Shown: piece after piece, positions 9,296 to 62,548 of the stretch
How the letters are laid out: each line of letters begins with the position of its first letter
Position numbering within the stretch: the stretch's first letter is position 1
Source: a virus
Virus record (IMG/VR): IMGVR_UViG_3300028549_000092
Location: 1 to 64,000 of that record
Direction: 5' to 3' (one strand)
DNA length: 64,000 nucleotides
Notes under the pieces: generated by a model
Databases searched by the model: none
Told to the model about the DNA's origin: nothing
Seen by the model: only the letters and a program-made list of their open reading frames with translations
Program-made: the position numbers and the translations under genes

Positions 9296-9307
9296 AACTT
9301 AAAAGAT

Positions 9308-23500: not shown

Positions 23501-26500
23501 TCCTAATTATGATTATTCGGATTACAACGCTGCCGATGCTCAAGAAATGACTTCGATGTATGAAGATTTAAAGGTTAGAATGAATACTGGAACTATTAGT
23601 AGAGGTCTATTCGAAGCTCTATATGATACTGAAGATGGTATAATATTCAATTTCCTTGATAAACATATTAGTTTTGAAAATGGTAATATTGTTTATGATG
23701 GGGATGCTTTAGACTATGAAGATTTAATACTTAGTAGTTTAAAATATACCGATAAGACATTGTATAACGAATACGTAGCTCTTGTTAATCAACCTGTCAA
23801 GCCTATGTATAGTAACAATGAGATTGTTTCTGATAAAGATTTCTCTGCTGATAGTAGACTTTATGTCAAGTCTTCGTCATACGCTTTACGTCCTAATCTT
23901 ACTAAAGATTTCCAAATAGACGATCTTCGTAAGGCTATGGATATTAGCACAGCTGTATATCTAAAACTTTTACAAACTCAAGGTGGGATTGAACAAGATT
24001 TAGACTTAGATACTATTAGAACTATGCTGACTACTAGTGGTCGTATAGATAGAGTGGCATTTGAAAGTGCTGTTAAGGTTGGTGCTCCAAGTGGAGTTCT
24101 ACCAAATGTGTTTGCAGAAGGTATGTCTGTTAATTCTATAATGGCTAGTTTAAAACCTGCTTCAAAGGTTTTGAATAGGTCTGGATTTAGACTTCAACAA
24201 GAACTTCCATATAGTGAAACTAAGACTGCTATTAAAAAAGGTTCGCAAGAGAGTAAACTTCTATTTAACAACCTACTAGAACTAGATGGATTATCAGACC
24301 TTAAAGAAAAGTATGATAGTCTTTATCATAGTCTATATAAATATCAAGCTGACGAACTTGTTAAATCTGTATCTCCTGATGGTGAAATAGACTACAAGAA
24401 ACTAAAGGCTATGTTGGATAAAGAAGCTCTATCTAACAACTATAACAACAATGACTTTAAAGGTCTTGATTTAAACGATGCTGGAACAGAGTTTCTAACT
24501 CCATTATTTTATCATAGTCGTAATAGATCTATAGAGAATCTATTTACAGCTATTATCAATAATAACGTTTTAAAGATTAAGATTCCTGGTCGTAGTTATG
24601 TTCTAGCTAGTGAAGTTGGTTATAAACGTGTGGTTACTGAAGTTACCAACGATACTAGAAGTAAAATAATTACTACTTCTAAGTTTGATGGTGAACTTAA
24701 AGCTCATGGATTTAGAGCTAAAGAAGATTTTGCTGATTACAAAGTTGGTGATTATGTTAAAATAGATGATATTGAAGGTAACAAAGATAAGGTTTATTTT
24801 CAACCTGACCAAGTTATTCTACCTAGTTACTTTAGAATTGACGGAAAGCTTGTTAATCTTGAGGCTAAAGAGAATGGTAGTTATGTTTATTTAAAAAATG
24901 ATGCTAACGGTAATCTCGTTATAAACGAGGATATGTTTGACGCAGATGTTTTAAAACTGTTCGGCTTTCGTATTCCAACGCAAGGTCATAGTTCTATGGC
25001 ATCTATTGAAGTTGTAGGTTTTACTCGTAAGTCTGCTGGTGAGTTTATAATAGCACCTAAAGATTTTGTTAAACGTATGGGTTCTGACTTTGACGTAGAT
25101 AAACTTTATACCTATATGTACAATATTAAATTTGATAATAACAAGTTTAGTAAAGATGTTGAAGGTAAAAAGGATATTCTAAATAAGATTGTAGATACTC
25201 ATCATGAAGTATTTGCTAATCCTAATAAAGCTATTCAGCAAATGATTCTAGCTCCTCTTTCTTACGGTATGTTTATGAATGAAGATGGTAATCATTTTCA
25301 GTCTAAGTCTACTGTTGTTAATGAGGCTATGAAAGCTGAGTTTGGAGATAATACTCCTGACATATCTAACTTTATTGATGGTATAAGATCTAAAGCTATT
25401 ACTAGAAGTTTTCTTTCTGATAAATATCAGCATGACTTTTATAAAAAGGGTCTTTCTGGTAAAGATGGTATTGCTGTATTTAGTGTTAACTCTGTATTCA
25501 ATGCTGTTGCTCAAAGTAAGAAACTTGAGTTTGGTCATACTACTAAGGAAGGTTTTGAAAGTATAGATGTTGTAATAGGTAATTCTATTGCTAAAGGTTC
25601 AGAGTTTTATAAACCTATTGGCGTTAGTAACAAATACAAGTCTTTAGTCATATCTTGGTATCAGTCTATATCTGTAGACAATGCTAAACTTAATCGTATG
25701 AATAAGGTTAACATTAATAGTAACACTTTTAATGTTATAAACTTTCTTAATCAAATGGGTTTTGATGAGGAAGTTGTTTGGCTTATCAATCAACCTATTG
25801 TAGTTAAATATCTACAAGCTGTTGATGACGCAAGTTCTAATCTTAAATCTACGTTTGTTAACAAGGTCAGTATTCAAAATCAGATTCGTAAAGAGTTTGG
25901 TATAGATAAATTTAAAACTGATTATGGAGATAGAGCTACTCCTAGAGGTATAAGTCAATTTGGTGATGACACATTTACTATAGAGAATATGTATAAAGCT
26001 ATTAAAGATCAAGGTCTTTATAGTACAACTAATTCTAATGTAGAAAGTAGTGACAGAGATGATTACAACTATCGACAACTTGCAATACTTAGCGCATTCC
26101 TTCAATACGATAAAGATGGAATGGCTATGAGTGAGATTCAACAAGCGATTAATGTAGACTCTAAAGATGTTGGTGCTGGTTTTACAGATGTTATTGTTAA
26201 ACTAAACAAACAAGATAAAGTCGTTACTACTCTTAGCGGTCAATTTAAAAATGCTGAAAAGCTTATTGGTAACGGTAGTGATAAACTAGATGTTACTAGT
26301 TCTGCAATTCAGTATGGTACTAAACTTACTAAAGAACTTTTCTCTAGTATGTTTATTCAATTTTCTAATGTTTTCGAAAATGCCTATAACGATCTTATTG
26401 GTAATGCTGGATTAGATGCTAGTTCGAGTAACATTGAAAAAGCTATAAACGGTCTTACTGACGATATTCGTCGTATGGCACATGTGTTTTCTATTGCCAA

Positions 26501-28748
26501 TAGTCTTACTGATGAACTTGGTGGTAAAGATGTGAGTGTTGTTCAAGCTATTAGATATTCACTTCTATCTGAAAACTATAAATTTAGAGGTCAATCCGAA
26601 GATGAGAAATTGAATAAAGTTTCTAATTACAACGATCGTGTTAACCTTAGAACTAGTTTACCTACGCTACTTCTTAAAATTCAAGATACTCCTTATGGTA
26701 AAACTAACAGGTTTATTATGAATATGATGGCTAAGGTTTCTAAGACTAATCACGAACTGAGTAAGATTACATACAATAACACTAGAGATAACTCTATTTC
26801 AGATGGTGCTATCTATGCTGATTTATTAGATCTTCTTTATACTAATCCTACTTTCAATTTCGACGGTAAGCTTTACAGTGGTAGACAGCTGTTTTCAGAT
26901 CTACTTATCTATTCTAAAGTTACTGGTGGTATTCAAAGGTTTAGTGACTTTGTTAAATTCATACCAGTAGAAGTTGAACGTGCTATGGGTATTTCAGATA
27001 GTTTAAAAGAGTTCGATACTCTACTTCCTGATCTACTTACAGACTTTACTTATACAGAGTTTTATCGTCAGTTTGTTCAGCATCATCCTGAATGGGCTCA
27101 TCAAATTAAACTTACTTCGTATAAGTCTGCTAACGATAGTAGTAGTACCGCATATACCATGTACGATATCGATACTAAAGCTACTGTAGATGTTAGTAAA
27201 GCTGCTGCTATTAACATTAAAGCTGATTGTACATCGGCTGTTACTAGTAAAACTTTAGTTAAAAGTAAAGATGGTAAACTAGAGGCTCCTTACAGGTTTC
27301 TAACTCATAAAACCAAAGATGGTAATTACATACTTTACGAACAAAGTGGTTTAAATGACGAAGCTAAAGAAGTTACCTATACTAGAATAGATTCTCTAGG
27401 AACTCATGGTTCTATTGAATATGATCCTTATTTCATAAAGGATGTTACTAGTACTAAAGAACCTGTTAAATCTAGTGTATTTGGTGATACTAAACGTCTA
27501 CTAGAAGCTAAGATTGATAAAGTCGTTCCTGATGAACTTCTAACAAAAGCTCAAAGAGTGTTTGGTTATAAGCTTAACAATATTAAAGAAGCTATCCATA
27601 ACATTGCTAATGTCCATCCGGATCGTTTTGTTTCTTACTTTGCTAGACATTTCTTACGTAACATTAATGCTAGTAAAGTTAAACTTCCAATTCTAATCTC
27701 TAATAAAGAGGTTGATAAGGTTTTTCTAAGTGACTCTGATAACGCTAAAGCTGTTGCTAGAAATGTTACTGGAATGGTTAATATTAAAACTACTTATCAA
27801 AATCAAGAGGTTAGTTACATTGTTTATAATGAAGATTGGATTGAACGTGACGATGTTACAGTTGCTGAGATTCAAAAGGAGATTATACATGAGATTGGAC
27901 ATACCGTATTAAATGACACTTATATCAAAGGTGTTATGGGATTAGTGGCCAAAGGTATCTATGATGTCGATAGTAACGATAGTCTTAATAAGGATACTCG
28001 AAAAGTGGCATATGAGATTTCTAACGGTAGTTTGAAATACACTCTAAACAAAAGTTTGTACAACTCGTTTAATATGAGTAAACTTACTACCGAGGAAATG
28101 TTTGTACTCAACATGGCTACTTGTTTAGATAACGCTAGAGAGTTTAACGATAACAACGGAACAGCCAAACTAGACGAACTGATAAGTAGTTATGATAGTG
28201 GCGTAATGTCTGCCGAGAATAAGGTGCTGCAAGGTTTGGTCAATCCTTTAGAGTTTATTGCCGAACTTACCAGCAATAGCGACTTCGTAAAGTACTTAGA
28301 TAAAGTTACCTATGGTAATACAAGTAACGTTGCTAAGGCACATACCAGCGTGTTTGGTGTTATAAAAACTATGATAGTTGACATTCTAAATAAGATATTC
28401 GGGTTTAAACTTAAACACAATAACGTTGCCGAAGTTGCTATTAGTAATGTCATGCTAGCTATGGAAAAGAACAATCCTACTTCTTTCACTAAGAATAAAG
28501 ATACTTCTATTCCTGGTGTAGTTTCTCAACAGTATTTGGATAACATTGCTAAAGAACAAGCTGCTAGGATTAAGGAAGCTGAATTACTATTTCCTCAACC
28601 TAGTATGCTTGAGAATGCAAATATTCTTGACGATCTAAGTATGCTAAGTGGTACAGCTATTAGGAATTTAGTAAATAATGTAGATACTGAAATTCTTCTT
28701 AATCGTCTTGTAAAAGAAGGACAAATAAACATTGCTTGCAAACTTTAA
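14574..28748 (+). CDS. Giant virion protein (4724 aa) with two-barrel RNA polymerase module and HExxH metallopeptidase motif
   Basis: 14.2-kb ORF with no stop. RIPTQGHSSM then GSDFDVDK about 38 aa later, compared with bacterial beta-prime NRAPTLH...NADFDGD. HEIGH lies about 285 aa from the C-terminus. The N-terminus has Gly/Ala-rich hydrophobic segments. Confidence 0.9.
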   Translation: MEDIKVPGNPMDTKPDGFNIDNQNNIPSSIYIEGGTDFMSTLIPKETVHYGDLDISSRVKVPKLANVGSIAKSKAGDIAPLKADGKHNSVNYNNSIKGSGIGQHEIDIYGKYVGGKVTEGIDLQEFAGQKQTGWETWARGLGKFAISASQAFTEPFVDMLYGAPAAIVCADKELFYDNGVTNWMDKVAADFSKNNPIFQTNAEKDANLMSMETLGSDAFWSDQALGSFGFTVGTILNGMVTGGLLTAAGKATQAGKAASMFERFMASYTAEGATLSGKAKTLDTIIAGMNTARTKTAIARTGLSMFSAFGEAGLEARQINNTLKPKLDALVANGDISAKDAEETLTSAKNMVFGMNTLTVGASQYVQFGKLFTRGYTAERAAIGKIGFNAESKTFENLGGKYNWMYNTAKRAVTEGNEEMLQTMYQHIAENQYSGKKNGKTFVRNGVGASIEAISKGLSPAFSNAWNSKDGQTSIFLGAVMGVLGGAHEIVKEQSNMNKGTQLAVNTLNDYTTGKDNAIYSYIKHIGDQAAIGQALEKAANKKDKFTYKNYEDQSLIKLVGALQATNSFGVFENYLNDVLSMNVDEYKKLNTGTTDDHYVVANKDALAVDILSNAKIYKNLYDTIQNNFSDRTGEHREVLYELKAATHGLDVRKAKIIASLKEKTGIDYEDTYKIAQTELISKYKKEYNATLGEGKINDPIEEGAFIRNKLNESDILNHAASIYNTQTSKAGNDEEGNDEIKDLEKINTAQANLVEYFKELSSKEGFVNSNTNAIKTNVNTAVADIKKGHKDSFKTSEKSYDEAFKKKASVETVDKATTDVTQTNDSLKTALNELDKEHPSYASKAAVYSRLISDNDNRLKSLEAKKIDLESKVTKVGNEVKPETPVEKPIAAKEEPKPNDAKVALDKLMNRADTAIRKASEAIRSAIVVLNSKPVIQKIDDVTFDTYVDRLNAFKSELLAKRSLVNKSDIYNEIVDEISNINTNVVTLVGELHKISKTTTKKTDTDNTKPVSQTSDENLVKLLDAAFEADPKGTVIAMFNRLSSNNDKDETTTTETIDTVSEISNTARTTNLDDAMDGASRARITELLFNNEAGNGYLAKLMTNDVKDFTNPIDVIGYLETILNNGEKLDKQQFAELFTPYYQYVFNNFDNKVANDLFDNQLTFPNYESNEVLYQDYLNPFIVDSLDNAPDEIIVLDKADQVKQKTPWAKVTTNYTEANGAILSVTGATMNNINTVYSGDTVNSGAVLVMTIDNEKPNFAITKQLDLNSRNITTTVISNEDVLAKVRANDWENITEEEIVNMPIKVSDSGGNELGHLHNPAWLDENRSTFDSSVNTNEGMAKAKRNLFEYKLAVVIHAANHNGAPIRTKVEFSNSGFITKNSKTKRVYKLAKHTIRNDKTVFAVAKTSSKGVSLFTSKGSEFNSENLLNKNTNFIKGITYAVSPVDATSIDGKVTYKYIALPCKSLRFGQSNLATNGKTGIGTLLADTITKALTLSIRLRSGIKLSEVDKSITDQFEALGFDLSNEKQVSDYVSGLTFARSDSRDLFKTIRDIYLSPNHSRHDEVSNGLTMINVTPKTVQFAQTGKFGFKITTITMYAEGAKFYTRTYGISDLKETTTEKEHKEHSIGMKDSNWESELRNVIMDSYIRTNGKLLNTSGTFSTPLVELDENGAITGVKLSKDYDTYNDFLKENLATDFTDVADATGKFHSTAFRAIIISEEVLKKNFAKQNKKTNLSEIADTIIQHNSARTMVKVTRAGKSFQLGYFCSVDAEEGLFSNFDTSSFKDNDTFKIAHDRAFEVISIVNSNVKQYNAKNNGDLKLVNIQGNILIYKSGDKTFSVDLNLVHNPNNSFNDTLAKEVLQGVAKLKTTDNVQVILTDGYVQFMDKPLIEDEKQLILEVDSPVEKREEPTVNTVVSDDITLDEDTLNLFADLKSIVDNNFGDSSEFSNTSVKESVEILAKEQLLNVVDDESKPVVYESRNEVDAAKRRVLRQLDTKDFNVIIENSEVLGNIVYNLKIIANDKKSNFVIDEHTLALVENALQTNGILKDVRSVTQSDLVNWLSNVAYDKLAGDIHGRFTINEILSDPKALITTRLAEFKAKISKFDSVIASIEADVKRKVATSIVDPVQRKAVIDANVNFVLATNNLTDGLNTRNRLNVISKEMQLSLDNFDVIAKLVERDLASMGMIDVNQIKREQDLPSLLQGNLAEASNSNIDTSIEEDAETEVKEDTSHYNYDTNLSINHKTTASKELKRFFKGIVKLNANGSIAKNIFGENSYVNYNDVMEDLFSILAGTPRTFEQMLGIIRKNIDNKPYLKNVYDKLMEEYEDDYSTIPAKFTKTMQKHEVVMDSLLVKRTKKGLFSTSIKSNKSSTISNIMNLWQNGFINTNFVMPVVSDSSELFLNDNLLRDYVEKYASLNTSNVLSEVNYSDKNAYVFVTKLIKSGNNILYTLFGLDSISDYNSIMEAKETITESDLKILIKKQGISLETYNNIVAIATDPIKLANIKRIYAGTFLEELGISVNQNALVSYLKDTNVKSLLDDFRTKHLKALIDNNKSIDLTDVNVFAPIYTILKNIAKHEERYAIVQKESSYRDQAGKLVQTYAQFKYMFERLSAIKENDTYREALINTTMNKVHPFMRTLSSKIGNLELTYADSFVNKYISNTETKKLAEANPSELELFKLYDYMNGGSDFGNFLYPTLSDGKVIMKLNYERRVYGINRKDGKFTNDLVKDYFESTILPELTRIEEFIRKNPNINVKGFDKGATRLVLSPTMDAYINTGENSLVNQFKNDPSKTHIITLTEEVKDILMKEVNEEVTDKIKNLADLGIFTKVPLSSVVEKDGETTEVKTKVDNGDVIIDGFVYKYDISTIDTKFHAMLEAKGANNVIGLVTNYVVSYRMAHSNNVALFLGDPATFWKKDHNNTNDNISKRLAGDRGPGELTMDHADPKAIYNQFTIADVEKGVVSVAKTFIDSVDPNYDYSDYNAADAQEMTSMYEDLKVRMNTGTISRGLFEALYDTEDGIIFNFLDKHISFENGNIVYDGDALDYEDLILSSLKYTDKTLYNEYVALVNQPVKPMYSNNEIVSDKDFSADSRLYVKSSSYALRPNLTKDFQIDDLRKAMDISTAVYLKLLQTQGGIEQDLDLDTIRTMLTTSGRIDRVAFESAVKVGAPSGVLPNVFAEGMSVNSIMASLKPASKVLNRSGFRLQQELPYSETKTAIKKGSQESKLLFNNLLELDGLSDLKEKYDSLYHSLYKYQADELVKSVSPDGEIDYKKLKAMLDKEALSNNYNNNDFKGLDLNDAGTEFLTPLFYHSRNRSIENLFTAIINNNVLKIKIPGRSYVLASEVGYKRVVTEVTNDTRSKIITTSKFDGELKAHGFRAKEDFADYKVGDYVKIDDIEGNKDKVYFQPDQVILPSYFRIDGKLVNLEAKENGSYVYLKNDANGNLVINEDMFDADVLKLFGFRIPTQGHSSMASIEVVGFTRKSAGEFIIAPKDFVKRMGSDFDVDKLYTYMYNIKFDNNKFSKDVEGKKDILNKIVDTHHEVFANPNKAIQQMILAPLSYGMFMNEDGNHFQSKSTVVNEAMKAEFGDNTPDISNFIDGIRSKAITRSFLSDKYQHDFYKKGLSGKDGIAVFSVNSVFNAVAQSKKLEFGHTTKEGFESIDVVIGNSIAKGSEFYKPIGVSNKYKSLVISWYQSISVDNAKLNRMNKVNINSNTFNVINFLNQMGFDEEVVWLINQPIVVKYLQAVDDASSNLKSTFVNKVSIQNQIRKEFGIDKFKTDYGDRATPRGISQFGDDTFTIENMYKAIKDQGLYSTTNSNVESSDRDDYNYRQLAILSAFLQYDKDGMAMSEIQQAINVDSKDVGAGFTDVIVKLNKQDKVVTTLSGQFKNAEKLIGNGSDKLDVTSSAIQYGTKLTKELFSSMFIQFSNVFENAYNDLIGNAGLDASSSNIEKAINGLTDDIRRMAHVFSIANSLTDELGGKDVSVVQAIRYSLLSENYKFRGQSEDEKLNKVSNYNDRVNLRTSLPTLLLKIQDTPYGKTNRFIMNMMAKVSKTNHELSKITYNNTRDNSISDGAIYADLLDLLYTNPTFNFDGKLYSGRQLFSDLLIYSKVTGGIQRFSDFVKFIPVEVERAMGISDSLKEFDTLLPDLLTDFTYTEFYRQFVQHHPEWAHQIKLTSYKSANDSSSTAYTMYDIDTKATVDVSKAAAINIKADCTSAVTSKTLVKSKDGKLEAPYRFLTHKTKDGNYILYEQSGLNDEAKEVTYTRIDSLGTHGSIEYDPYFIKDVTSTKEPVKSSVFGDTKRLLEAKIDKVVPDELLTKAQRVFGYKLNNIKEAIHNIANVHPDRFVSYFARHFLRNINASKVKLPILISNKEVDKVFLSDSDNAKAVARNVTGMVNIKTTYQNQEVSYIVYNEDWIERDDVTVAEIQKEIIHEIGHTVLNDTYIKGVMGLVAKGIYDVDSNDSLNKDTRKVAYEISNGSLKYTLNKSLYNSFNMSKLTTEEMFVLNMATCLDNAREFNDNNGTAKLDELISSYDSGVMSAENKVLQGLVNPLEFIAELTSNSDFVKYLDKVTYGNTSNVAKAHTSVFGVIKTMIVDILNKIFGFKLKHNNVAEVAISNVMLAMEKNNPTSFTKNKDTSIPGVVSQQYLDNIAKEQAARIKEAELLFPQPSMLENANILDDLSMLSGTAIRNLVNNVDTEILLNRLVKEGQINIACKL
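20275..20299 (+). repeat. Dispersed motif copy
   Basis: tagattcccctgtagaaaagaggga. Inside the giant ORF, read as DSPVEKRE. Confidence 0.9.
21173..21197 (-). repeat. Dispersed motif copy (reverse orientation)
   Basis: Plus strand reads tccctctttactacaggggaatcta. Inside the giant ORF, read as PSLLQGNL. Confidence 0.9.
24969..25100 (+). other. Beta-prime-like DPBB catalytic segment (R-x-P-T-x-x-H ... D-F-D-V-D) within the giant ORF
   Basis: In-frame codons cgt att cca acg caa ggt cat at 24969 and gac ttt gac gta gat at 25086-25100. Confidence 0.7.
27888..27902 (+). other. HExxH (HEIGH) zincin motif within the giant ORF
   Basis: cat gag att gga cat, in frame. Context is EIIHEIGHTVLND. Confidence 0.5.
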
Positions 28749-32841: not shown

Positions 32842-32880
32842 AAAAAAAGGGTTAGTACTAATGATAGTACTAACCCTTTT
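32842..32880. terminator. Bidirectional terminator at the convergence of the two gene blocks
   Basis: Perfect 15-bp stem aaagggttagtacta-atga-tagtactaacccttt, flanked by an A-run and a T-run. Confidence 0.9.
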
Positions 32881-32884
32881 ATAG

Positions 32885-33487
32885 TTACGATAGTTGCTTA
32901 TTCAAGAGCTCGGTAAACTCTACATAATAGTCGGTTTTGTCGTCTATATGATCTTCAAGTAAATCTTCAAAATCTTCTAAGATACATGCTTGAAGATTCT
33001 CTGATCCGTAAACAGTCTTATAATCAGATGGCTTGGAATCATTAAAATGTATCTCTCCACAAGTCTTACAGACTTCACTAGTCTTATAGTGATATTGATA
33101 AACATCTCCATCGAGATGGAAATTCCATTCTACTAACAATTCTTCTGCGGCAGTTAAAGCCTCTTCTTGTGAATCGTAATAGAACTTATCAACTACTACA
33201 AACCCTCCAAAAGTATCGTCAAGTCCTATAGGTTGGTCAAACCCTTCTTTGGTATAAAGACGTAACTTAATTCCTGAATGAATATGTGCTACTACAGGAA
33301 AGAGATAAAAATCTTTAGCGTCGTCTAATGAGAATTGACCAAGCCAATGAGCGAAATCATGATTGGCATATTCAACTTTTAGTTGTTCATGATCAAACGC
33401 TAATCCCACAGCTTCATAATAAGGTCGTACATACCAATTTTTAACTTTCAACTGATACTGTTTAAAATCGAGTACAAAATCTTTCAT
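32885..33487 (-). CDS. Hypothetical acidic protein (200 aa)
   Basis: Last gene of the minus-strand block. Acidic C-terminus (EDFEDLLEDHIDDKTD) and a CKTCGE motif. Confidence 0.7.
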   Translation of the reverse strand: MKDFVLDFKQYQLKVKNWYVRPYYEAVGLAFDHEQLKVEYANHDFAHWLGQFSLDDAKDFYLFPVVAHIHSGIKLRLYTKEGFDQPIGLDDTFGGFVVVDKFYYDSQEEALTAAEELLVEWNFHLDGDVYQYHYKTSEVCKTCGEIHFNDSKPSDYKTVYGSENLQACILEDFEDLLEDHIDDKTDYYVEFTELLNKQLS

Positions 33488-33520
33488 AGATTAAAGTTTT
33501 AATTGTTGATAATGTTAATG

Positions 33521-33558
33521 AAAAAGAATCCCCCACTATTATCACAACAGTAGGGGAT
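33521..33558 (-). terminator. Terminator-like hairpin + T-run about 35 nt upstream of the 200-aa gene start
   Basis: The minus strand reads atcccctact...agtgggggat followed by tcttttt. This implies a minus-strand transcript ends inside the ORF-poor region. Confidence 0.55.
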
Positions 33559-33569
33559 CGAACTCTAAA

Positions 33570-33588
33570 TACTAAACTTTCTTTATCT
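33570..33588 (+). repeat. Box TACTAAACTTTYTTWATCT, copy 1
   Basis: tactaaactttctttatct. Copy 2 lies exactly 120 nt downstream. Confidence 0.6.
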
Positions 33589-33610
33589 ATCAATCTTAGA
33601 AATTGAAAGA

Positions 33611-33640
33611 GGATTGGCATTCCGATAACCAACCCTTTTT
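33611..33640 (+). other. Hairpin + T-run readable as a weak plus-strand terminator inside the ORF-poor region
   Basis: ggattgg-cattccgataa-ccaaccc followed by tttttcttt. The stem has one mismatch. Confidence 0.3.
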
Positions 33641-33689
33641 CTTTGCATAACAAGACACCTAATTAAGACAGATTCGATATATCTTTAAG

Positions 33690-33708
33690 TACTAAACTTT
33701 TTAATCTT
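33690..33708 (+). repeat. Box TACTAAACTTTYTTWATCT, copy 2
   Basis: tactaaactttttaatctt. Confidence 0.6.
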
Positions 33709-33719
33709 CTTGGTAATCA

Positions 33720-33747
33720 AAGGGGAGCTATTGTAGTAACTCCCCTT
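33720..33747. other. Hairpin (8-bp stem AAGGGGAG/CTCCCCTT, 12-nt loop)
   Basis: aaggggagctattgtagtaactcccctt. Confidence 0.6.
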
Positions 33748-33788
33748 ATCATAACTTTAACTTATTATAACGACATTATGCAAAATGT

Positions 33789-33805
33789 TTCTAATTAAAT
33801 AACCC
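33789..33805 (+). repeat. Box TTCTAATTAAATAACCC, copy 1 (runs into hairpin 33801-33825)
   Basis: Identical 17-mer at 33909-33925, 120 nt downstream. Confidence 0.7.
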
Positions 33806-33825
33806 GACCTCCTAGAGATCGGGTT
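33801..33825. other. Hairpin (7-bp stem AACCCGA/TCGGGTT, 11-nt loop)
   Basis: aacccgacctcctagagatcgggtt. Confidence 0.6.
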
Positions 33826-33899
33826 AAGCGTTAATCCAATGAGGGTAGTATTAACGATGCTCTATGAAGAGACTTAAATAAAACCAGAAGTATTGTAGA

Positions 33900-33925
33900 T
33901 ACTAAACCTTCTAATTAAATAACCC
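33900..33925 (+). repeat. Composite box TACTAAACC + TTCTAATTAAATAACCC (runs into hairpin 33919-33963)
   Basis: tactaaaccttctaattaaataaccc. Confidence 0.7.
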
Positions 33926-33963
33926 AATCTAATAATACTAGTAATACTACTAGACTGGGTTAT
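33919..33963. other. Long hairpin (13-bp stem with 1 mismatch)
   Basis: ataacccaatcta...tagactgggttat. Confidence 0.6.
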
Positions 33964-34134
33964 CACTCTTCCAATCACCTCTCTATAAATGATTGTAATC
34001 AAAGTGGAAATTGAGTATCACTTTATCTTAATAACAATAACAAATGGGTTACTGTTTATAATAGACTTATTAAATTTACAACTCGACCGCAACTAGTAAT
34101 TCCAAAAGATAAAGTTGTTCTTAAAGATAAAAAA

Positions 34135-34190
34135 GCTGTTGGCTGTTGGGCTGTTGGCTGTTTTGCTTTGGCTGTTGGTGTTGTTTGGAT
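34135..34190 (+). repeat. Tandem GCTGTTGG-type array (about 5 units, some degenerate)
   Basis: gctgttggctgttgggctgttggctgttttgctttggctgttggtgttgtttgg. Confidence 0.8.
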
Positions 34191-34220
34191 TCGGGAGCGT
34201 TTCTTTGAAACGTTCTCGAA
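34190..34220 (+). other. 15-bp stem / 3-nt loop hairpin (two G-T pairs on + strand)
   Basis: ttcgggagcgtttc-ttt-gaaacgttctcgaa. The two non-Watson-Crick positions are G-T on the plus strand and would be C-A on the minus strand. Confidence 0.6.
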
Positions 34221-34513
34221 TGGATGTTTCTTGGCTTCGTTCCCACAGCAAAAATAGGATTTTAAACGGACTTTTGCAACATTTACGAGAATTTGCACAC
34301 GATTTAACCTTCATTAAGGAATAACTGGTTGATTTATAGACACTTATAGACGTATCTTTGTACCGGAGGTGTAAACAGGCTTAACCTGCTTAGAATGGGA
34401 TTAATCAGACAATTGTACAGTCGATTTTCAAATATTCGATTCTAACGAGGTTGGTTATGTTAAGTAGGGTTCGACCAAGCCCCACACACCAATAGGCAAC
34501 GTTAAACGATTAC

Positions 34514-34560
34514 CATTAAAAAGAAACCCCTTACTAGTATTACTACTAGCAAGGGGTTTC
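34514..34560 (-). terminator. Terminator after the dUTPase gene
   Basis: gaaaccccttactagta...tactagcaaggggtttc, followed on the minus strand by ttttt. Confidence 0.85.
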
Positions 34561-34638
34561 TCATTTAAAAACATACCTAATCATATTATTTAAAATAGTA
34601 ATACAGGTATTTCTATGAACACATAGACATCTTCAATC

Positions 34639-35877
34639 TTACTTCTTAACTTTGTCAGCAAGACTTTTGGCAACGTCTAAAGGATTGCCAATTATTTTAC
34701 TAGTCATAGTTTTAGCACCACCATTAAAAACACCTTGAATCGAACCTGTAGTAACACCATCTCCACAAAGTTTCTCATCCGTTTCATCAACCTGAATGGT
34801 CTCTAAGACACCTCCAACAGTTGTAATAGTAGTAGGGAGCACTCCCCTCCTTTCTACGGGGGAAATCAGATGTTGCAGAAGAAGTTTACCACTAATACTA
34901 ACGTTATTGTAAACAAATACGGAATCAGGATTAGCGCGAAGTGTATCTTTAATCAGTTCTTCACCCATAACAGATATCATTTCACAGATATCAAATCTAG
35001 GATCAAATTGAATATGGATACGAGTATCGGCTTCTCCCATTTTAGTAATATCACCATCAATACCGCTACTACCAAAACCCTTAGCTCCACGATCTTTAAT
35101 AATTTGAGCTAGTTCGAAGGTATCGTTGTTAACAGGTTGAACAGATACTCTAATAGGTATCACGTATTGAAAAACGACTTGAGCAATAGATTGCTTATCT
35201 TTAATAACAATGTTACTACGACCACAGTTTTTAACGATAATGCTAGCATCACCAGTATATCCGTTGTCAATAGTTCCGGGAGCATTTGTTAATTCAAGTT
35301 CAGTTTTGAGACTAATACCAGACTTAGGTCTAACACTAGCTTCAATAGCATATGGTAGAAGATAATGAACTCCTGTAGGAATCTTTAATTTAACTCCAGG
35401 CCCTATTGTTATAAACAGACCTTCTTGACCTGTAGCAATGGTAACACCTTTAGGTAATTCATATACACCGGTCTTAACCATCAAGTTTAATAGTTCAAGA
35501 TTACAATACATATCCCACCCACTATCATTAGGATTAGCTCTAGTAGGAATTATACCCGGACAAGTAGGGTTTAAATAAAACCTAACAGCTTCTTGATTGA
35601 AAGCCGGAAGATATTTAAGATGATTAGTAATTCGAATACGTTGCTGTCTAATATCTTCTTTAAGATATCGAAGTGTTAAATCAATATCTAAATGAGTAGA
35701 CAAAGCTTTATAGACATCTTTAATGTCTCTACCAATGAACTCATAATGAGATGTCAACTCTTCTTTAGTGTCTTGTTTAAATTTATCAAACAGACCGCTA
35801 AGTTTAGTAAACTTAGTCTTAATGAATACCATGTACACTATCGTTACGAGTAGCGCAATTCCTAACAAAATTTCCAT
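34639..35877 (-). CDS. dut: dUTPase fusion protein (N-terminal TM helix + dUTPase core + about 130-aa C-terminal extension)
   Basis: dUTPase motifs SGWDMY, RPKSG, GTIDNGYTGD, IAQVVF and RGAKGFGSSG. The N-terminus is ILLGIALLVTIVYMVFI. Confidence 0.85.
   Translation of the reverse strand: MEILLGIALLVTIVYMVFIKTKFTKLSGLFDKFKQDTKEELTSHYEFIGRDIKDVYKALSTHLDIDLTLRYLKEDIRQQRIRITNHLKYLPAFNQEAVRFYLNPTCPGIIPTRANPNDSGWDMYCNLELLNLMVKTGVYELPKGVTIATGQEGLFITIGPGVKLKIPTGVHYLLPYAIEASVRPKSGISLKTELELTNAPGTIDNGYTGDASIIVKNCGRSNIVIKDKQSIAQVVFQYVIPIRVSVQPVNNDTFELAQIIKDRGAKGFGSSGIDGDITKMGEADTRIHIQFDPRFDICEMISVMGEELIKDTLRANPDSVFVYNNVSISGKLLLQHLISPVERRGVLPTTITTVGGVLETIQVDETDEKLCGDGVTTGSIQGVFNGGAKTMTSKIIGNPLDVAKSLADKVKK
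34844..34869 (-). repeat. Dispersed motif copy (reverse orientation)
   Basis: Plus strand reads cccctcctttctacgggggaaatcag. Sense to the dUTPase gene, read as ISPVERRG. Confidence 0.85.
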
Positions 35878-35896: not shown

Positions 35897-37006
35897 TTAA
35901 ACTAATGTACCTGTTGAAAGTTCACCTTTAATAGCAGGATGCGAAACATAGTCAATAAGTTGGAACGTATTAGGATTAACATGCGCCATAAAATCATTAA
36001 CAGTAGTCTTCATCCAAGGTTCTCTATTTAGAAGAACATCTATAATGGGTGTAACAGGTTTATCTTCAAGTTGCATACCTAATATAGGCAGAGGCTTAAC
36101 TTCACGAGTAGCTTGCATCTTAGCAAGATCAATATGATTTTCATACAGATGGACATCCAGTCCATTCCATACCATACGTAGGGGAAGGGTATTAGTTAAA
36201 AGACCTATGATGTTAGCCAATGCTGCATATGAACTAAGGTTAAAAGGAACACCTAGAAAATAATCAGCAGATCGTTGAACAACATCGATAGTTATCCCAT
36301 TCTTAGGAATATCGTTAATATCCAAAAGTTCTTTAAGATGTTTAGGACTTAGTACATCTAAAGTTTTAGTACCCAATTTACGTTTAAGTAAATCTTCTCT
36401 CGAACTAGTAGATAAAGTCCTGACGTGAACTTGAAAATAGATATGACAGTTAGGTTGAGCAGAAAGATCTTTGTTAGTAAGTTGAGGAGACCAACTTAAA
36501 ACATTGTGATAACGAGAAGTAGGATTACTTTGGATGTTATCTATAAGATTCTGGAATTGATCCATTCCAAAACCTTTACGCCAAAAGTGTCCATAAACCA
36601 TACCTAGATCACCAACTGCATAATCTAGCATAGCTTTGTTGGCAAGGTCTGCGTAAGTAAGATTTTTAACAGCCGTTATAAAATCTTCTTTAGTCATAGC
36701 TATTTGGTTATTAACACTACATTGATATATATACCAACCGTAAGCGTTATTATTCCAAATATTACAACCATTGTCTAGGAGATACTTAATGTTCGTATCA
36801 CCTCTTAGAAACCATAAGAGTTCTGTAATGATAGCCTTCCATTCCATCTTTTTTGTAGTAAGAATTGGAAACCGATCAATCAGAGATAGTTTAATCTGAA
36901 CACCTGGCATGACAATAGTCTTTGGCATTCCTTTTCTAGCAGCAGCTACAGAATAACCTCTTTCAATAAGAAGTTCGACATGTGTTAGATATGCTTTCAT
37001 AAGCAA
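35897..37006 (-). CDS. Thymidylate synthase (ThyA) family enzyme with internal insertion
   Basis: Motifs DLGMVYGHFWR, PNCH (nucleophile Cys), QRSADYFLGVPFNLSSYA and DVHLYENH. About 40 extra residues lie between the Cys motif and QRS. Confidence 0.8.
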   Translation of the reverse strand: MLMKAYLTHVELLIERGYSVAAARKGMPKTIVMPGVQIKLSLIDRFPILTTKKMEWKAIITELLWFLRGDTNIKYLLDNGCNIWNNNAYGWYIYQCSVNNQIAMTKEDFITAVKNLTYADLANKAMLDYAVGDLGMVYGHFWRKGFGMDQFQNLIDNIQSNPTSRYHNVLSWSPQLTNKDLSAQPNCHIYFQVHVRTLSTSSREDLLKRKLGTKTLDVLSPKHLKELLDINDIPKNGITIDVVQRSADYFLGVPFNLSSYAALANIIGLLTNTLPLRMVWNGLDVHLYENHIDLAKMQATREVKPLPILGMQLEDKPVTPIIDVLLNREPWMKTTVNDFMAHVNPNTFQLIDYVSHPAIKGELSTGTLV

Positions 37007-37058
37007 ATTTATTGGTGGTTTGAATTACAAAGAAAAGTAAACTTTATAAGTTAAGCAA

Positions 37059-37090
37059 AGGTGACAACAGTTTTAACATTGCCGTCACCT
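37059..37090 (-). terminator. Hairpin after the DUF932 gene
   Basis: aggtgac-18 nt-gtcacct, followed on the minus strand by ttgctt. Confidence 0.5.
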
Positions 37091-37097
37091 CTATGAG

Positions 37098-38180
37098 TTA
37101 TACAGACATCAGTTGCTTTGCTATCTGTAAAGACTTATCGTTAATCTTGAAATGATTACCGTAATACATACTCTTAATCTTATCGTCAGGAGTAGTGTAT
37201 CTAGCAATGTTTTGGAAGTAACCGGTAATAGCATTGTAACCAGCCCATAGTGTACCTTTGACTTCAGGTAAATCTTGACCTGCACCATCAAAGTAATAAC
37301 TTTCTACACTATCCAGTATGTTATACTTTCTAGTAGAAACAGCTTCGATCAGCGGCATACCTCCGTTAATCTTATAAATCTCATCACTGGTCATAAATAC
37401 ACTACGAATATAATCCATAGCTTCATGATCAGTCAGTTTGGTTTTAGCCATAGCTCTGTAAACTTCCTCAACACTTTTAGAGTTGACATGTTCAATCCTT
37501 AGAATGTTAGCGGCATTATCCAATCGGTTCTTTGCGTTAACGGTGTGCATAACTCTATATTTAGAAGTAGCACTATTCATAGCAGCCATTAGCGTATTAT
37601 TGCAAACAACTCTAATATTAGTAAACATAACTTCAATAGAACTAAGACCGTTGTGAGAATTTGTTAAAAGTAGATATTTATCTACAATGTCGTCACCTAC
37701 TACTCTAATCGTATCCGGCAGTTTAGCAGTAATAAAAACTCTTTCTCCTCTACCAATAACTCCAGCAGTTTCAAAGATAGCTTTCTTTTCTCTAACGATG
37801 TCGTCAAAGAATTGGAAAGCATCAACATTTTGATAAACCTCGTAATCAGTACCGACGTTACCAAGAATCTGACGAGTGTCAGTACGATATGTACTAAAAC
37901 TGGCAGGATTGACAACAAGTCTTTCTTTAGGAATCTTAATAAACGGATCGACAAGTAGAGGTATGTCTAGTAAATCTTTACGACGTTCATCAACGACTTC
38001 GTCATAGTAGATGTCTGTAAAGTTAGGAGCTTTAATAACAGTGTAATCAAGACGAGCTGTACGAATAGCTTCTTCAGAAGTAAGAGCGTTTTCAACTATA
38101 GTACCTAGACCATGCCAAGGTTTTTCCTTAACAACGAAAAGAGATGTTTTATTATCTCTAATTTCTAATTTATGAGCCAT
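37098..38180 (-). CDS. DUF932 / phage-plasmid-like protein
   Basis: The N-terminus KEKPWHGLGTIVENALTSEEAIRTARLDYTV matches the characteristic DUF932 opening. Confidence 0.7.
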   Translation of the reverse strand: MAHKLEIRDNKTSLFVVKEKPWHGLGTIVENALTSEEAIRTARLDYTVIKAPNFTDIYYDEVVDERRKDLLDIPLLVDPFIKIPKERLVVNPASFSTYRTDTRQILGNVGTDYEVYQNVDAFQFFDDIVREKKAIFETAGVIGRGERVFITAKLPDTIRVVGDDIVDKYLLLTNSHNGLSSIEVMFTNIRVVCNNTLMAAMNSATSKYRVMHTVNAKNRLDNAANILRIEHVNSKSVEEVYRAMAKTKLTDHEAMDYIRSVFMTSDEIYKINGGMPLIEAVSTRKYNILDSVESYYFDGAGQDLPEVKGTLWAGYNAITGYFQNIARYTTPDDKIKSMYYGNHFKINDKSLQIAKQLMSV

Positions 38181-55770: not shown

Positions 55771-55848
55771 AGTTTGTGAACATTTTGTTAGTATTAGACG
55801 GCTTAAAGATAGTAAAAGTTTAGATAGTAAAGCTAGGTCTAAATAAAT

Positions 55849-55897
55849 AATCGGTTGAATTACGAAACCCGAATGAGTGTGCGTAGTTCAACCGATT
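55849..55897 (-). terminator. Long hairpin after gene 55972..56283
   Basis: aatcggttgaa...ttcaaccgatt with an inner tacg/cgta extension. Followed on the minus strand by atttattt. Confidence 0.55.
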
Positions 55898-60970: not shown

Positions 60971-61013
60971 AATTATAAGAGTTAGATTGTTATTAACATT
61001 GAGATTAAGGTTT
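60971..61013 (-). promoter_or_regulatory. Conserved about 44-nt leader upstream of paralog gene 60614..60970
   Basis: Plus strand aattataagagttagattgttattaacattgagattaaggttt. Confidence 0.6.
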
Positions 61014-61381
61014 CAATGATCTTATTAGTAATAGGCTTAGATAGAGCTTTAGTAATAGATCTAGCAAGACTAATAATAACAAGGTGGCAAAGATCAACCT
61101 AATCTCTTACTAAAAGTTGGACTTTTTATACCCCTACTCGATCTCAAATTGTAGGTAAACCTATAGCCAATAAAGATTTTTAGGGGGTTTTAGAACAGTA
61201 AGAGGAACAAGTTTCATAGATTTTCACGGCAAAGATATAGATTGTTCAGGGGAATTGCAAGAAGTGGATGAATAATTGCTATAATAGGAAGAGAAGTATG
61301 AGATGGAAGGAGAAGAGGATGAGTAGTCGGAAGTGGGATGTTCCTACCTGCAACTCTACACCTCTTCTCATTCTCAATTTC

Positions 61382-61693
61382 TTAACCAATAGCTTCACAA
61401 TCAGTCTTTATTTCACCTCTAGCGGTCACTAAAACTTGCACTTTACTAGAAGTTCTATTAACCCCGTTAATCATAGTTACCACACTAATAGTCTTATTAA
61501 TAGTAACCTCTATAACCTTACCTTTGAAGATCATAGTGTTAACTTTATTCAGATGTAGCTGTGTGTCACTAGTTTGAATCTCCAATTCATCATCAACTTT
61601 AAGATCTAAAGCGTCTGGATCGTCAATCATATGAGCAGTCTTTATGTCATCAGAGCCATAAAGTAGGTAATTTACCATAACAATCTTATTCAT
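61382..61693 (-). CDS. Hypothetical protein (103 aa)
   Basis: ORF in the small-gene array. Confidence 0.6.
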   Translation of the reverse strand: MNKIVMVNYLLYGSDDIKTAHMIDDPDALDLKVDDELEIQTSDTQLHLNKVNTMIFKGKVIEVTINKTISVVTMINGVNRTSSKVQVLVTARGEIKTDCEAIG

Positions 61694-61984: not shown

Positions 61985-61995
61985 AACTGTAAGAG

Positions 61996-62259: not shown

Positions 62260-62286
62260 TTAAAGGATGAGCCTTTCGGCTATTCC

Positions 62287-62493: not shown

Positions 62494-62503
62494 CAACAGG
62501 TTA

Positions 62504-62522: not shown

Positions 62523-62548
62523 CAATTCTTATCTACAATAAGGGCAAG

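What the first reader, a model, noticed from the sequence alone, without database searches (positions are those of the whole stretch)
33488..34638. 1.15-kb ORF-poor, hairpin-dense region inside an otherwise tightly packed gene block
Elsewhere in the window, intergenic spacers are mostly under 120 nt. Here 1.15 kb separates the dUTPase terminator (34514-34560) from the start of the last minus-strand gene (33487), and only short, implausible ORFs are present.

The region contains at least six hairpins, two families of short direct repeats with 120-nt spacing, a tandem GCTGTTGG array and a GC-richer island.

A hairpin with a T-run at 33521-33558 on the minus strand looks like a terminator just before the next gene. 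That implies a separate non-coding transcription unit ends there.

Candidates are a replication origin, a cluster of small structured RNAs, or a regulatory switch region. The small RNAs could include solitary CRISPR-repeat-like anti-defence RNAs.
Basis: partly seen in the sequence, partly recalled or inferred. Interest (0 to 1): 0.65.

Follow-up and report, generated by a model that had tools for sequence, protein, structure and literature searches.

The report
Conserved non-coding hairpin region, crAss-like phage
A 1.15-kb stretch between two genes of a previously unknown crAss-like phage has no convincing protein gene but changes far more slowly than silent sites, and it looks like terminator hairpins, two promoters and short non-coding transcripts, not a replication origin.

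Summary
Window 33488-34638 is the longest stretch without a convincing gene in this part of a new crAss-like phage genome. It has at least nine hairpins, three short repeat families, a GCTGTTG tandem array and a GC-richer island.

The gap is kept at the same place in the only relatives found (three haplotypes). It diverges 12% against 30% at four-fold degenerate sites of neighbouring genes, so it is under purifying selection.

Seven of eight strong hairpins are more stable as minus-strand RNA, and most carry T-rich tails. Some keep pairing through compensatory changes. This points to RNA-level elements.

Two back-to-back Bacteroidota-type promoter matches sit in the central island.

No tRNA, Rfam family, CRISPR-like handle or homologous protein was found.

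The gap lies 0.7 kb from the convergent strand switch, at the cumulative GC-skew maximum. That argues against an origin.

One plus-strand 69-aa hydrophobic ORF is conserved, with a small excess of synonymous changes. It cannot be excluded.

Best reading: a lineage-specific terminator, small-RNA and control region. Its function is inferred, not shown.

The parts
34572..34612 (-). H0: hairpin in the 3' UTR just after the dUTPase stop; nearly invariant in relatives
   Evidence: dG -8.6 as minus RNA, -6.4 as plus RNA. The block 34607-34508 is 98% identical to L003.
34522..34561 (-). T1: 18-bp terminator hairpin of the dUTPase operon, followed by UUUUUAAUGG. It is near-palindromic, so it could also end a plus-strand RNA.
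   Evidence: I3, 94% complementary. (-30.8 as minus RNA, -24.1 as plus RNA). Only one one-sided pair change between window and L003 in the whole 34625-34515 block that contains it; unchanged in all four aligned sequences.
34329..34360 (+). P(+): Bacteroidota-type promoter match, TTG (34329-34331), 21-nt spacer, TATCTTTG (34353-34360), firing toward T1
   Evidence: conserved in L003; only 5 such full matches lie in the intergenic DNA of the window.
34366..34565 (+). Candidate ~200-nt plus-strand non-coding RNA running from P(+) to T1
   Evidence: MFE -62.1, z = -5.0. The ends are inferred and the structure is only partly kept in L003.
34249..34279 (-). P(-): Bacteroidota-type promoter match, TTG (34279-34277), 20-nt spacer, TATTTTTG (34256-34249), back-to-back with P(+)
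   Evidence: It lies in the most conserved stretch of the gap: 34307-34208 is 97% identical to L003, and the 100 aligned columns just downstream, 34236-34137, show 1 mismatch.
34112..34243 (-). Candidate minus-strand RNA from P(-): 5' hairpin, then a C/A-rich repeat tract (CCAACAG)n, then a U-run at 34130-34120
   Evidence: The ends are inferred and the fold z-score is only -1.8.
34189..34221 (+). Hc: 15-bp hairpin, the only one clearly more stable as plus-strand RNA; invariant in all haplotypes
   Evidence: plus-strand terminator-like site. (-20.0 as plus RNA, -11.2 as minus RNA)..
34135..34183 (+). Tandem GCTGTTG(G) array (7 copies of period 7, or 3 of period 15). Relatives carry 21 extra nt.
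   Evidence: searches (TRF; D3), (21-nt indel).
34115..34324 (+). plus69: conserved TTG-initiated ORF of 69 aa (76 aa in relatives) with a hydrophobic N-terminal segment and a basic tail. Coding status is unresolved.
   Evidence: 9 synonymous to 8 non-synonymous codon changes, against 2:12 to 6:11 in the other frames. Against: coding score -0.064/nt; 0 homologues in 1.84 billion representatives.
34308..34319 (-). Small 4-bp hairpin kept through two double-sided (compensatory) changes
   Evidence: CG to AT and TA to CG.
33992..34028 (-). Degenerate copy of the T5 hairpin module (AAAGTG...CACTTTGATTAC)
   Evidence: local alignment z = 4.1; D11.
33920..33962 (-). T3: 20-bp terminator hairpin followed by TTTAATTAGAA; paralogue of T4
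   Evidence: (-25.5 as minus RNA, -11.8 as plus RNA; D6).
33896..33910 (-). M1: copy of the 15-nt motif AARGTTTAGTAYYTA
   Evidence: (D2). The three copies with 0-1 mismatch are confined to the gap.
33797..33895 (-). Candidate ~100-nt small RNA body between M1 and the T4 terminator
   Evidence: z = -2.6. The block 33930-33831 diverges 5%. The ends are inferred.
33800..33826 (-). T4: 12-bp terminator hairpin followed by TTTAATTAGAA
   Evidence: -18.1 as minus RNA, -14.0 as plus RNA.
33720..33747 (-). T5: 11-bp GC-rich hairpin. It lies in the stretch of about 90 nt that the relatives lack.
   Evidence: (I20).
33686..33700 (-). M2: second motif copy, degenerate in relatives
33606..33640 (-). T6: hairpin followed by UUUCAAUUUCU, kept through compensatory changes (TA to CG, TG to AT)
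33566..33580 (-). M3: third motif copy. It is invariant in relatives while the sequence upstream of it varies.
33527..33559 (-). T7: 15-bp hairpin followed by CUUUUUCAUU, 40 nt before the orf200 ATG. It is either a terminator/attenuator or a 5'-UTR structure.
   Evidence: (-20.6 as minus RNA, -10.4 as plus RNA; pairing kept through GT to GC and TA to GT).

Best explanation
The gap is a lineage-specific, selectively constrained non-coding control region. It lies at the 3' end of the minus-strand replication and nucleotide-metabolism module of a novel crAss-like phage, and it works mainly at the RNA level.

Proposed layout on the minus strand:
1. The dUTPase operon ends at a strong terminator, T1.
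2. In the GC-richer central island, two back-to-back host-type (Bacteroidota -33/-7) promoters fire outward. One launches a structured plus-strand RNA of about 200 nt that ends at the near-palindromic T1. The other launches a minus-strand RNA with a 5' hairpin and a C/A-rich repeat tract.
3. Downstream comes a series of duplicated intrinsic-terminator modules (T3, T4, T5, T6, T7). They are interleaved with three copies of a 15-nt motif. Together they delimit short non-coding units of about 50-100 nt.
4. These modules also act as serial stops or attenuators. They would gate transcription into the last gene (orf200) and keep minus-strand transcription from running into the convergent late genes.

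Shown:
- absence of convincing coding capacity;
- conservation well above the neutral proxy;
- hairpins that favour the minus strand, some with compensatory changes;
- promoter and terminator consensus matches.

Inferred:
- that the promoters fire;
- where the transcripts start and end;
- what the RNAs do.
For: No coding signal:
- ORFs are 80 aa or shorter.
- All have negative coding scores, while 15 of 16 held-out small genes score positive.
- No six-frame sliding window keeps a sustained coding score.
- No protein family hits.

Conservation:
- The same gap, with the same synteny, is present in the relatives L003 and L013/L014/L022.
- Substitution divergence is 0.121 (127/1053). Four-fold degenerate sites of five neighbouring genes diverge by 0.30 (239/803).
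- Individual blocks diverge by only 1-8%.
- The adjacent dUTPase 3' end and orf200 are much more diverged.

Structure:
- z-scores are -3 to -10 in the gap and about 0 in the flanks.
- 7 of 8 strong hairpins are 2-14 kcal/mol more stable as minus-strand RNA; T1, T3, T4, T6 and T7 carry T-rich tails.
- Four sites pass the terminator scan, against 1.6 expected.
- Pairing is kept through compensatory changes in T6, T7 and the 34308-34319 hairpin.

Promoters:
- TTG-N17-23-TAnnTTTG occurs only 5 times in the 5.9 kb of intergenic DNA, and 2 of these are in the gap.
- The two are back-to-back and conserved in relatives.
- A properly spaced TTG accompanies 5 of 11 intergenic boxes but only 13 of 113 genic boxes.

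Host-type inference:
- The phage is crAss-like: CrAss_Ring_1/2 domains and DNA polymerase closest to crAss002.
- Gene starts lack Shine-Dalgarno sequences.

Comparable context: the equivalent end-of-module region in crAss002 also has 6 terminator-like hairpins against 0.7 expected.
Against: - No transcript data exist.
- Only three haplotypes are available, so covariation support is thin. Larger predicted folds are not clearly conserved.
- The bare -7 box occurs at chance frequency: about 1 per kb per strand, genic or intergenic.
- The 15-nt motif matches no known promoter consensus and occurs nowhere else in the genome, so its role is unknown.
- No RNA target complementarity exceeds shuffled controls.
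- A plus-strand 69-aa ORF overlapping the most conserved block shows a mild excess of synonymous changes. Part of the constraint could therefore be protein-coding.
- Genome mosaicism could inflate the apparent conservation if the block was exchanged recently.
Confidence: 0.5

Rival explanations
1. The central island encodes a real small membrane protein. This is plus69, at 34115-34324 on the plus strand: a TTG start, one hydrophobic helix and a basic tail. The promoter P(-) inside the ORF would make an overlapping antisense RNA. The arrangement would then be a type-I-toxin-antitoxin-like or holin-like peptide regulated by antisense RNA, and the rest of the gap would be its UTRs plus terminators.
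For: - The ORF is open with the same TTG start and the same stop in all three haplotypes.
- The 21-nt indel is in frame and adds LSLLLSL.
- The 15-nt repeat period is a multiple of three.
- Its frame has 9 synonymous to 8 non-synonymous codon changes. The other five frames have 2:12 to 6:11.
- By my reading of the alignments, both L003/L013 differences inside the ORF are synonymous, and a stop arises just upstream of the TTG.
- P(-) lies inside the ORF and points antisense.
- The overlap region is the most conserved part of the gap, as expected under double constraint.
Against: - The coding-model score is negative: -0.064/nt overall and -0.06/nt even for the non-repeat C-terminal part.
- There are 0 homologues among 1.84 billion representative proteins and no Pfam, PHROG or PADLOC hit.
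- The start is TTG, without the TTTAAA-type upstream motif that most genes of this phage have.
- All three plus frames across the G/T-rich repeat read as hydrophobic.
- Gene callers chose three different ORFs, or none, in the four assemblies.
- A 15-bp terminator-like hairpin sits inside the ORF.
- The last six codons change in a way that preserves a hairpin.
- The synonymous excess is not significant after correcting for six frames.
Confidence: 0.2
2. The gap is a DNA-level cis element. It could be a replication origin with GCTGTTG iterons and an AT-rich unwinding region at 34020-34110. It could instead be a replication terminus, a multimer-resolution site or a packaging site.
For: - A tandem heptamer array whose copy number varies between relatives.
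- An adjacent AT-rich stretch of 28-30% GC.
- Direct repeats and inverted repeats.
- A position next to the replication gene module.
- Strong nucleotide-level conservation.
Against: - The gap lies at the cumulative GC-skew maximum, beside the convergent strand switch. In the prototypic crAssphage, origins were predicted at the start of the forward strand, which I read as the divergent switch. The divergent switch here lies just beyond the window end.
- Hairpins are strongly asymmetric between strands because of G-U pairs. That fits RNA, not cruciform or double-stranded DNA recognition.
- The heptamer spacing of 7-8 nt does not place repeats on one face of the helix.
- No initiator gene flanks the gap.
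- None of the contigs that cover this part of the genome ends inside the gap; the ends I placed lie near ThyA, near 61.3 kb and just before the window start.
Confidence: 0.12
3. The hairpins are anti-defence decoy RNAs. They could be solitary CRISPR-repeat-like RNAs or other small RNAs that titrate host immune or RNA-binding proteins.
For: - Several short, stable, conserved hairpin units have their own terminators.
- They sit beside a fast-evolving orphan gene: orf200 is 39% aa identical, where neighbouring genes are 76-91%. Such fast evolution is typical of counter-defence loci.
- Modules duplicate and are lost between relatives.
Against: - No Cas12a-type handle lies in the gap.
- No Rfam match.
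- No match to any sequence in 185,579 species genomes for two conserved 20-23-mers.
- The hairpins look like ordinary terminators of this phage. A similar stem plus ATTTATTTAG occurs at 55839-55853.
Confidence: 0.05
4. The gap is a non-functional spacer or decayed genes, and the hairpins are incidental.
For: - The region is lineage-specific. A profile of the gap finds nothing in more distant crAss-like loci.
- crAss002 has small ORFs at the equivalent place.
Against: - Divergence is 2.5-fold below four-fold degenerate sites, about 12 standard deviations by my binomial estimate from the counts.
- Some blocks are nearly invariant.
- Structure z-scores lie far below shuffles.
- Hairpins keep pairing through compensatory substitutions.
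Confidence: 0.03

Closest known systems
Rho-independent (intrinsic) terminators, and terminator arrays at the ends of convergent phage transcription modules
   Same: GC-containing stem-loops are followed by U-rich tails on the transcribed strand. They sit at the end of an operon, close to the convergent junction. The equivalent region of Bacteroides phage crAss002 is also terminator-rich.
   Different: Five to six of them occur in series over 1 kb, and a gene still lies downstream. They are interleaved with a repeated 15-nt motif and with promoter-like sites. The spacers between them are themselves conserved.
Phage-encoded small non-coding RNAs and antisense RNAs (general class; from my own knowledge, not checked here, examples would include lambda OOP and P22 sar)
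   Same: Short units with a promoter-like site, a structured body and an intrinsic terminator lie in an intergenic region. A divergent or antisense arrangement occurs in the central island.
   Different: There is no sequence or structure match to any Rfam family. No expression data exist and no predicted target exceeds chance.
Type I toxin-antitoxin modules (hok/sok, txpA/ratA and bsrG/SR4 types)
   Same: A small ORF encodes a hydrophobic helix. A predicted antisense promoter lies inside it. Nucleotide conservation is very high in the overlap.
   Different: At 69-76 aa the ORF is longer than most type I toxins. It starts with TTG and has a negative coding score. It matches no Pfam or Rfam toxin or antitoxin family. 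Translation and toxicity are untested.
Iteron-type replication origins of phages and plasmids
   Same: Tandem short repeats lie next to an AT-rich stretch, with inverted repeats, close to replication genes.
   Different: The GC-skew position is wrong (maximum, convergent switch). The 7-8-nt repeat spacing is out of helical phase. The hairpins are strand-asymmetric. No initiator gene lies alongside.

Membership tests
tRNA / tmRNA genes | Cloverleaf detectable by ARAGORN or by the Rfam tRNA model | tested here: not met
   ARAGORN finds 0 genes in the whole window. No tRNA hit appears even at E<=10 in the gap.
Any curated RNA family (Rfam 15) | Covariance-model score at or above the family's gathering threshold | tested here: not met
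   0 hits at gathering thresholds. The best sub-threshold hits reach 24-26 bits against thresholds of 43-54 and merely fit terminator hairpins. The relative L013 gives only SprD at 21.6 bits against a threshold of 100.
Intrinsic terminator | Stem of at least 5 bp with G-C pairs and a short loop, followed by a T-rich tail on the transcribed strand | tested here: met
   The scan finds 33962-33920, 33826-33800 and 33559-33527 on the minus strand, and 34189-34221 on the plus strand. That is 4 sites against 1.6 expected. T1 and T6 show the same layout by direct reading. Termination activity itself was not tested.
Bacteroidota sigma-A promoter | -33 TTG and -7 TAnnTTTG separated by about 19-21 nt | tested here: met
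   P(-) is TTG-N20-TATTTTTG and P(+) is TTG-N21-TATCTTTG. Both are conserved in relatives. Full matches are about 4-fold enriched in intergenic DNA. The consensus is taken from my own knowledge of Bacteroides promoters. Promoter activity was not tested.
Iteron-type replication origin | Location at the GC-skew minimum or divergent point, beside an initiator gene | tested here: not met
   The gap is at the cumulative GC-skew maximum, 0.7 kb from the convergent switch. The flanking genes are a dUTPase and an orphan.
Iteron-type replication origin | Direct repeats (iterons) plus an AT-rich unwinding element | tested here: inconclusive
   A heptamer array and an adjacent stretch of 28-30% GC exist. 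The 7-8-nt spacing is atypical and no binding protein is known.
CRISPR-repeat-like anti-CRISPR RNA (Racr) | Sequence and structure similarity to a CRISPR repeat of the host | not testable with these tools
   The host is unknown. As a partial test, the Cas12a handle pattern TCTAC-N3-6-GTAGA has no match in the gap. Two conserved gap 20-23-mers have no match in 185,579 species genomes.
Type I toxin-antitoxin | Small hydrophobic toxin ORF | tested here: inconclusive
   plus69 has a hydrophobic segment of about 20 aa and is conserved. Its coding score is negative and it has no homologues.
Type I toxin-antitoxin | Homology to a known toxin (Pfam) or antitoxin RNA (Rfam) family | tested here: not met
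   No Pfam hit at E<=1 and no Rfam hit.
Crassvirales (context of the window) | crAss-specific structural proteins and the module synteny | tested here: met
   CrAss_Ring_1 and CrAss_Ring_2 domains lie on window ORFs 4082-4870 and 2526-3203. The DNA polymerase is 37% identical to cr107_1 and 36% to crAss002. The gene order is the same as in crAss002, down to the convergent giant protein.

The most novel reading that the evidence does not exclude
The central island may be an antisense-controlled small membrane peptide. A 69-76-aa single-helix protein would be read on the late (plus) strand. An RNA from an internal minus-strand promoter would cover its start codon. That is a type-I-toxin-like or holin-timer-like switch, not described so far in crAss-like phages.

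Under this reading, the highly conserved 5' part of the minus-strand RNA might also help RNA polymerase read through the five terminators that follow, into orf200. That would resemble processive antitermination of the put-RNA kind.
Probability: 0.15. Interest if true: 0.65.

Novelty: new member of a known kind. Interest (0 to 1): 0.42.

Why it matters
I know of no experimentally described non-coding RNAs or regulatory regions in crAss-like phages, one of the most abundant phage groups (own knowledge; two paper searches here, surfaced none, and neither was a dedicated search for such RNAs).

This stretch is 1.1 kb with no match to any of the 4227 curated Rfam families. It is under clear purifying selection and has strand-specific RNA structures, two promoter-like sites and duplicating hairpin modules. 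That makes it a concrete, testable candidate for phage-encoded regulatory RNAs or transcription gating in this group.

It is also a caution for annotation. Gene callers placed three different spurious or uncertain ORFs here in different assemblies.

The practical value is moderate. The element is restricted to one rare, uncultured lineage from environmental metagenomes, and its function is inferred only.

Tried and rejected
- tRNA or tmRNA genes: none found.
- Rfam families: none at gathering or permissive thresholds, in the window or in the relative.
- Similar DNA in 50,697 phage records: none.
- Relatives through dUTPase or orf200 in IMG/VR: none. orf200 has no homologue at all.
- Exact 20-23-mer scans of viral, metagenome and genome collections gave nothing real. 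The hits L006-L008 are chance matches inside unrelated coding sequence.
- Distant crAss-like loci found through the 1350-aa protein and DUF932 have no comparable gap and no nhmmer match to a profile of the gap.
- A 120-nt tandem duplication of the whole region is not supported. Only short modules are shared.
- The 15-nt motif as a general phage promoter: rejected, because it occurs only in the gap.
- The motif or candidate RNAs as anti-RBS seeds: no duplex with any translation-initiation region is better than shuffled controls.
- GCTGTTGG as a Chi-like site spread over the genome: only 2 copies lie outside the array.
- Sigma-70 promoter scan: no enrichment (9 found, 11.7 expected).
- Cas12a-like handle: absent from the gap.
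- Structure prediction of orf200: pLDDT 34, unusable, so no fold search was run.
- Group I or II intron: only a gpI hit at E=2.2, and no interrupted gene.
Full report
**Context**

The window is 33% GC. Genes run on the plus strand up to 32813, including ORFs of 1473, 810, 927, 4724 and 1350 aa. From 32885 onward they run on the minus strand.

The minus-strand module encodes:
- a Dda-like helicase, a DNA polymerase and a ligase;
- a dNMP kinase, a Gam-like protein and a DUF932 protein;
- thymidylate synthase and a 412-aa dUTPase.

Two plus-strand ORFs carry the CrAss_Ring_1 and CrAss_Ring_2 domains. The DNA polymerase is closest to cr107_1 and crAss002, at 36-37% identity. Gene order matches crAss002 down to the dUTPase, a few small ORFs and a convergent giant protein. 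The window is therefore a divergent crAss-like phage.

The genome is about 88.6 kb. The divergent strand switch lies just beyond the right end of the window. Gene starts lack Shine-Dalgarno sequences and instead carry a TTTAAA-like motif 8-20 nt upstream. By inference this fits a Bacteroidota host.

**The observation**

The 1151 nt between the dUTPase stop and the ATG of the last minus-strand gene (orf200, an orphan) contain no ORF longer than 80 aa.

I trained a 3-periodic Markov model on the phage's long genes.
- Real genes score +0.04 to +0.11 per nt.
- 15 of 16 held-out small genes score positive.
- Every ORF in the gap scores negative.
- No six-frame sliding window sustains a coding score.
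- None of the ORFs hits Pfam, PHROGs or PADLOC.

- hairpins (at least nine);
- two repeat pairs at exactly 120-nt spacing;
- a GCTGTTG tandem array, with the 8-mer far above chance;
- a 42-48% GC island at 34100-34250;
- a minus-strand hairpin with a T-run at 33559-33527.

Folding z-scores are -3 to -10 across the gap and near zero in the flanking genes.

**Relatives and selection**

The phage is rare. Identical copies occur in two other assemblies.

One relative lineage was found through the dUTPase and then through 90%-identity protein clusters. It gives two further haplotypes: L003, and L013 = L014 = L022. All have the same synteny, with a gap of 1079-1082 nt.

| Measure (window vs L013) | Value |
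|---|---|
| Divergence at four-fold degenerate sites, five neighbouring genes | 0.30 (239/803) |
| Divergence across the gap, aligned columns | 0.121 (127/1053) |
| Block 34236-34137 | 1% |
| Block 33930-33831 | 5% |
| Block 34638-34437 | 6-8% |

Meanwhile the 3' end of the dUTPase and orf200 are far more diverged; orf200 is only 39% aa identical.

The gap is thus under purifying selection at the nucleotide level. That rules out junk or decayed genes, unless the block was exchanged very recently between the lineages.

Between the lineages:
- the window has an extra stretch of about 90 nt that carries hairpin T5, and its second motif copy is intact where the relatives' copy is degenerate;
- the relatives have 21 extra nt in the repeat array.

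More distant crAss-like loci have nothing similar.

**RNA level or DNA level**

Seven of the eight strong hairpins are 2-14 kcal/mol more stable as minus-strand RNA than as plus-strand RNA, because of G-U pairs. These are H0, T1, T3, T4, T5, T6 and T7. T1, T3, T4, T6 and T7 are followed by T-rich tails on the minus strand; T5 has only a weak one and H0 runs into the T1 stem.

Three of them pass a generic terminator scan, which together with Hc gives 4 sites against 1.6 expected.

T6, T7 and the small 34308-34319 hairpin keep pairing through double-sided substitutions.

Only Hc (34189-34221) is clearly better as plus-strand RNA, at -20.0 against -11.2 kcal/mol.

Strand asymmetry of this kind argues for transcripts, not for cruciform or double-stranded DNA sites.

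T3 and T4 are paralogues: TAACCC...GGGTTATTTAATTAGAA. T5 has a degenerate copy at 33992-34028. A 15-nt motif, AARGTTTAGTAYYTA, occurs three times and only here. The region therefore evolves by duplication and loss of small modules.

**Promoters**

Generic sigma-70 matches are not enriched.

With the Bacteroidota consensus (TTG, 17-23 nt, TAnnTTTG), the window has only five full matches in intergenic DNA. Two of them lie back-to-back in the centre of the gap and are conserved in the relatives:
- P(-), with its -7 box at 34256-34249;
- P(+), with its -7 box at 34353-34360.

P(+) would give a plus-strand RNA of about 200 nt ending at the near-palindromic T1 (z = -5.0).

P(-) would give a minus-strand RNA with a 5' hairpin and a C/A-rich repeat tract. 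It would then meet T3-T7.

The bare -7 box occurs at chance frequency. These are therefore candidates, not demonstrated promoters.

**A possible small protein**

A plus-strand ORF at 34115-34324 is open with the same TTG start and the same stop in all haplotypes. It reads MFLKIKKLLAVGLLAVLLWLLVLFGFGSVSLKRSR... and is 69 aa, or 76 aa in the relatives.

For coding:
- the 21-nt indel is in frame;
- its frame has 9 synonymous to 8 non-synonymous codon changes, against 2:12 to 6:11 in the other frames.

Against coding:
- a negative coding score;
- no homologue among 1.84 billion representative proteins;
- no typical upstream motif;
- a 15-bp hairpin inside the ORF;
- hairpin-preserving changes in its last codons;
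- hydrophobic reading in all three frames of the G/T-rich repeat.

I put its being translated at about 0.2-0.3. Even if it is real, more than 80% of the gap remains non-coding. With P(-) inside it, the arrangement would resemble a type I toxin-antitoxin or an antisense-timed membrane peptide.

**Origin and anti-defence readings**

The gap lies at the cumulative GC-skew maximum, 0.7 kb from the convergent switch. In the prototypic crAssphage, origins were predicted at the start of the forward strand, which I read as the divergent switch (PMC10983915). Skew here mainly follows gene orientation, so this is weak evidence. Combined with the strand-asymmetric hairpins, the absence of an initiator gene and the out-of-phase repeats, I rate a DNA-level cis element at about 0.12.

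For CRISPR-like decoys:
- there is no Cas12a-type handle in the gap;
- there is no Rfam hit;
- there is no match in 185,579 species genomes;
- the host is unknown, so its repeats cannot be compared.

**Verdict**

The finding is real. It is a conserved, lineage-specific, non-coding, RNA-structured region. The best reading is a terminator array with embedded short non-coding transcription units and a divergent promoter pair. It would gate expression of the last gene and insulate the convergent modules.

The mechanism is inferred from consensus matches and from three haplotypes only. Transcript mapping would settle it.

Noticed in passing
window 14574-28748 (+): A 4724-aa ORF (4943 aa in the relative L013) has no Pfam or PHROG hit at all. 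It occupies the position of the 4245-aa 'putative RNAP catalytic subunit' gp33 of crAss002. The neighbouring 1473-aa and 1350-aa ORFs are also without family hits.
   Followed up: partly
window, 8-20 nt upstream of most ATG starts (e.g. 33500-33495, 51690-51680, 59040-59030): Genes lack Shine-Dalgarno sequences. Instead they carry a recurrent (A)ACTTTAAA(C)/TTAAAAC motif upstream of the start codon. This looks like a non-SD translation-initiation signal of the kind I would expect for a Bacteroidota host (own knowledge, not tested here).
   Followed up: partly
window 32885-33487 (-): orf200 is an orphan: its only hit among 5.8 billion protein clusters is itself. It evolves very fast, at 39% aa identity to the relative where neighbouring genes are 76-91% identical. 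The AlphaFold model was unusable (pLDDT 34).
   Followed up: partly
window 34639-35877 (-): The dUTPase is 412 aa, but the dUTPase domain covers only about residues 107-282. The 3' end of the gene is only 27-54% nt identical to the relative, as if it had been replaced, while the sequence straight after the stop codon is 98% identical.
   Followed up: no
window 32847-32878: A palindrome (AAGGGTTAGTACTAA on one strand, AAGGGTTAGTACTAT on the other) sits in the 71-nt convergent junction between the 1350-aa gene and orf200. It is probably a bidirectional terminator.
   Followed up: no
window 60971-61381 and 61985-62548: Further ORF-poor stretches of 0.4-0.56 kb lie in the early region. One carries a full Bacteroidota-type promoter match at about 61233 (-). 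The JGI assembly of the same phage breaks at about 61286-61426.
   Followed up: no
L003, L014, L002 and L015 contig ends near window 35900-37200: Four independent assemblies of this phage or its relative break in, or just upstream of, the thymidylate synthase gene. This suggests strain variation or cross-assembly with host thyA-like sequence.
   Followed up: no
L012 (crAss002) 8981-11137: The equivalent end-of-module region of Bacteroides phage crAss002 also has 6 terminator-like hairpins against 0.7 expected, and unannotated gaps of 325-454 nt between small hypothetical ORFs.
   Followed up: partly
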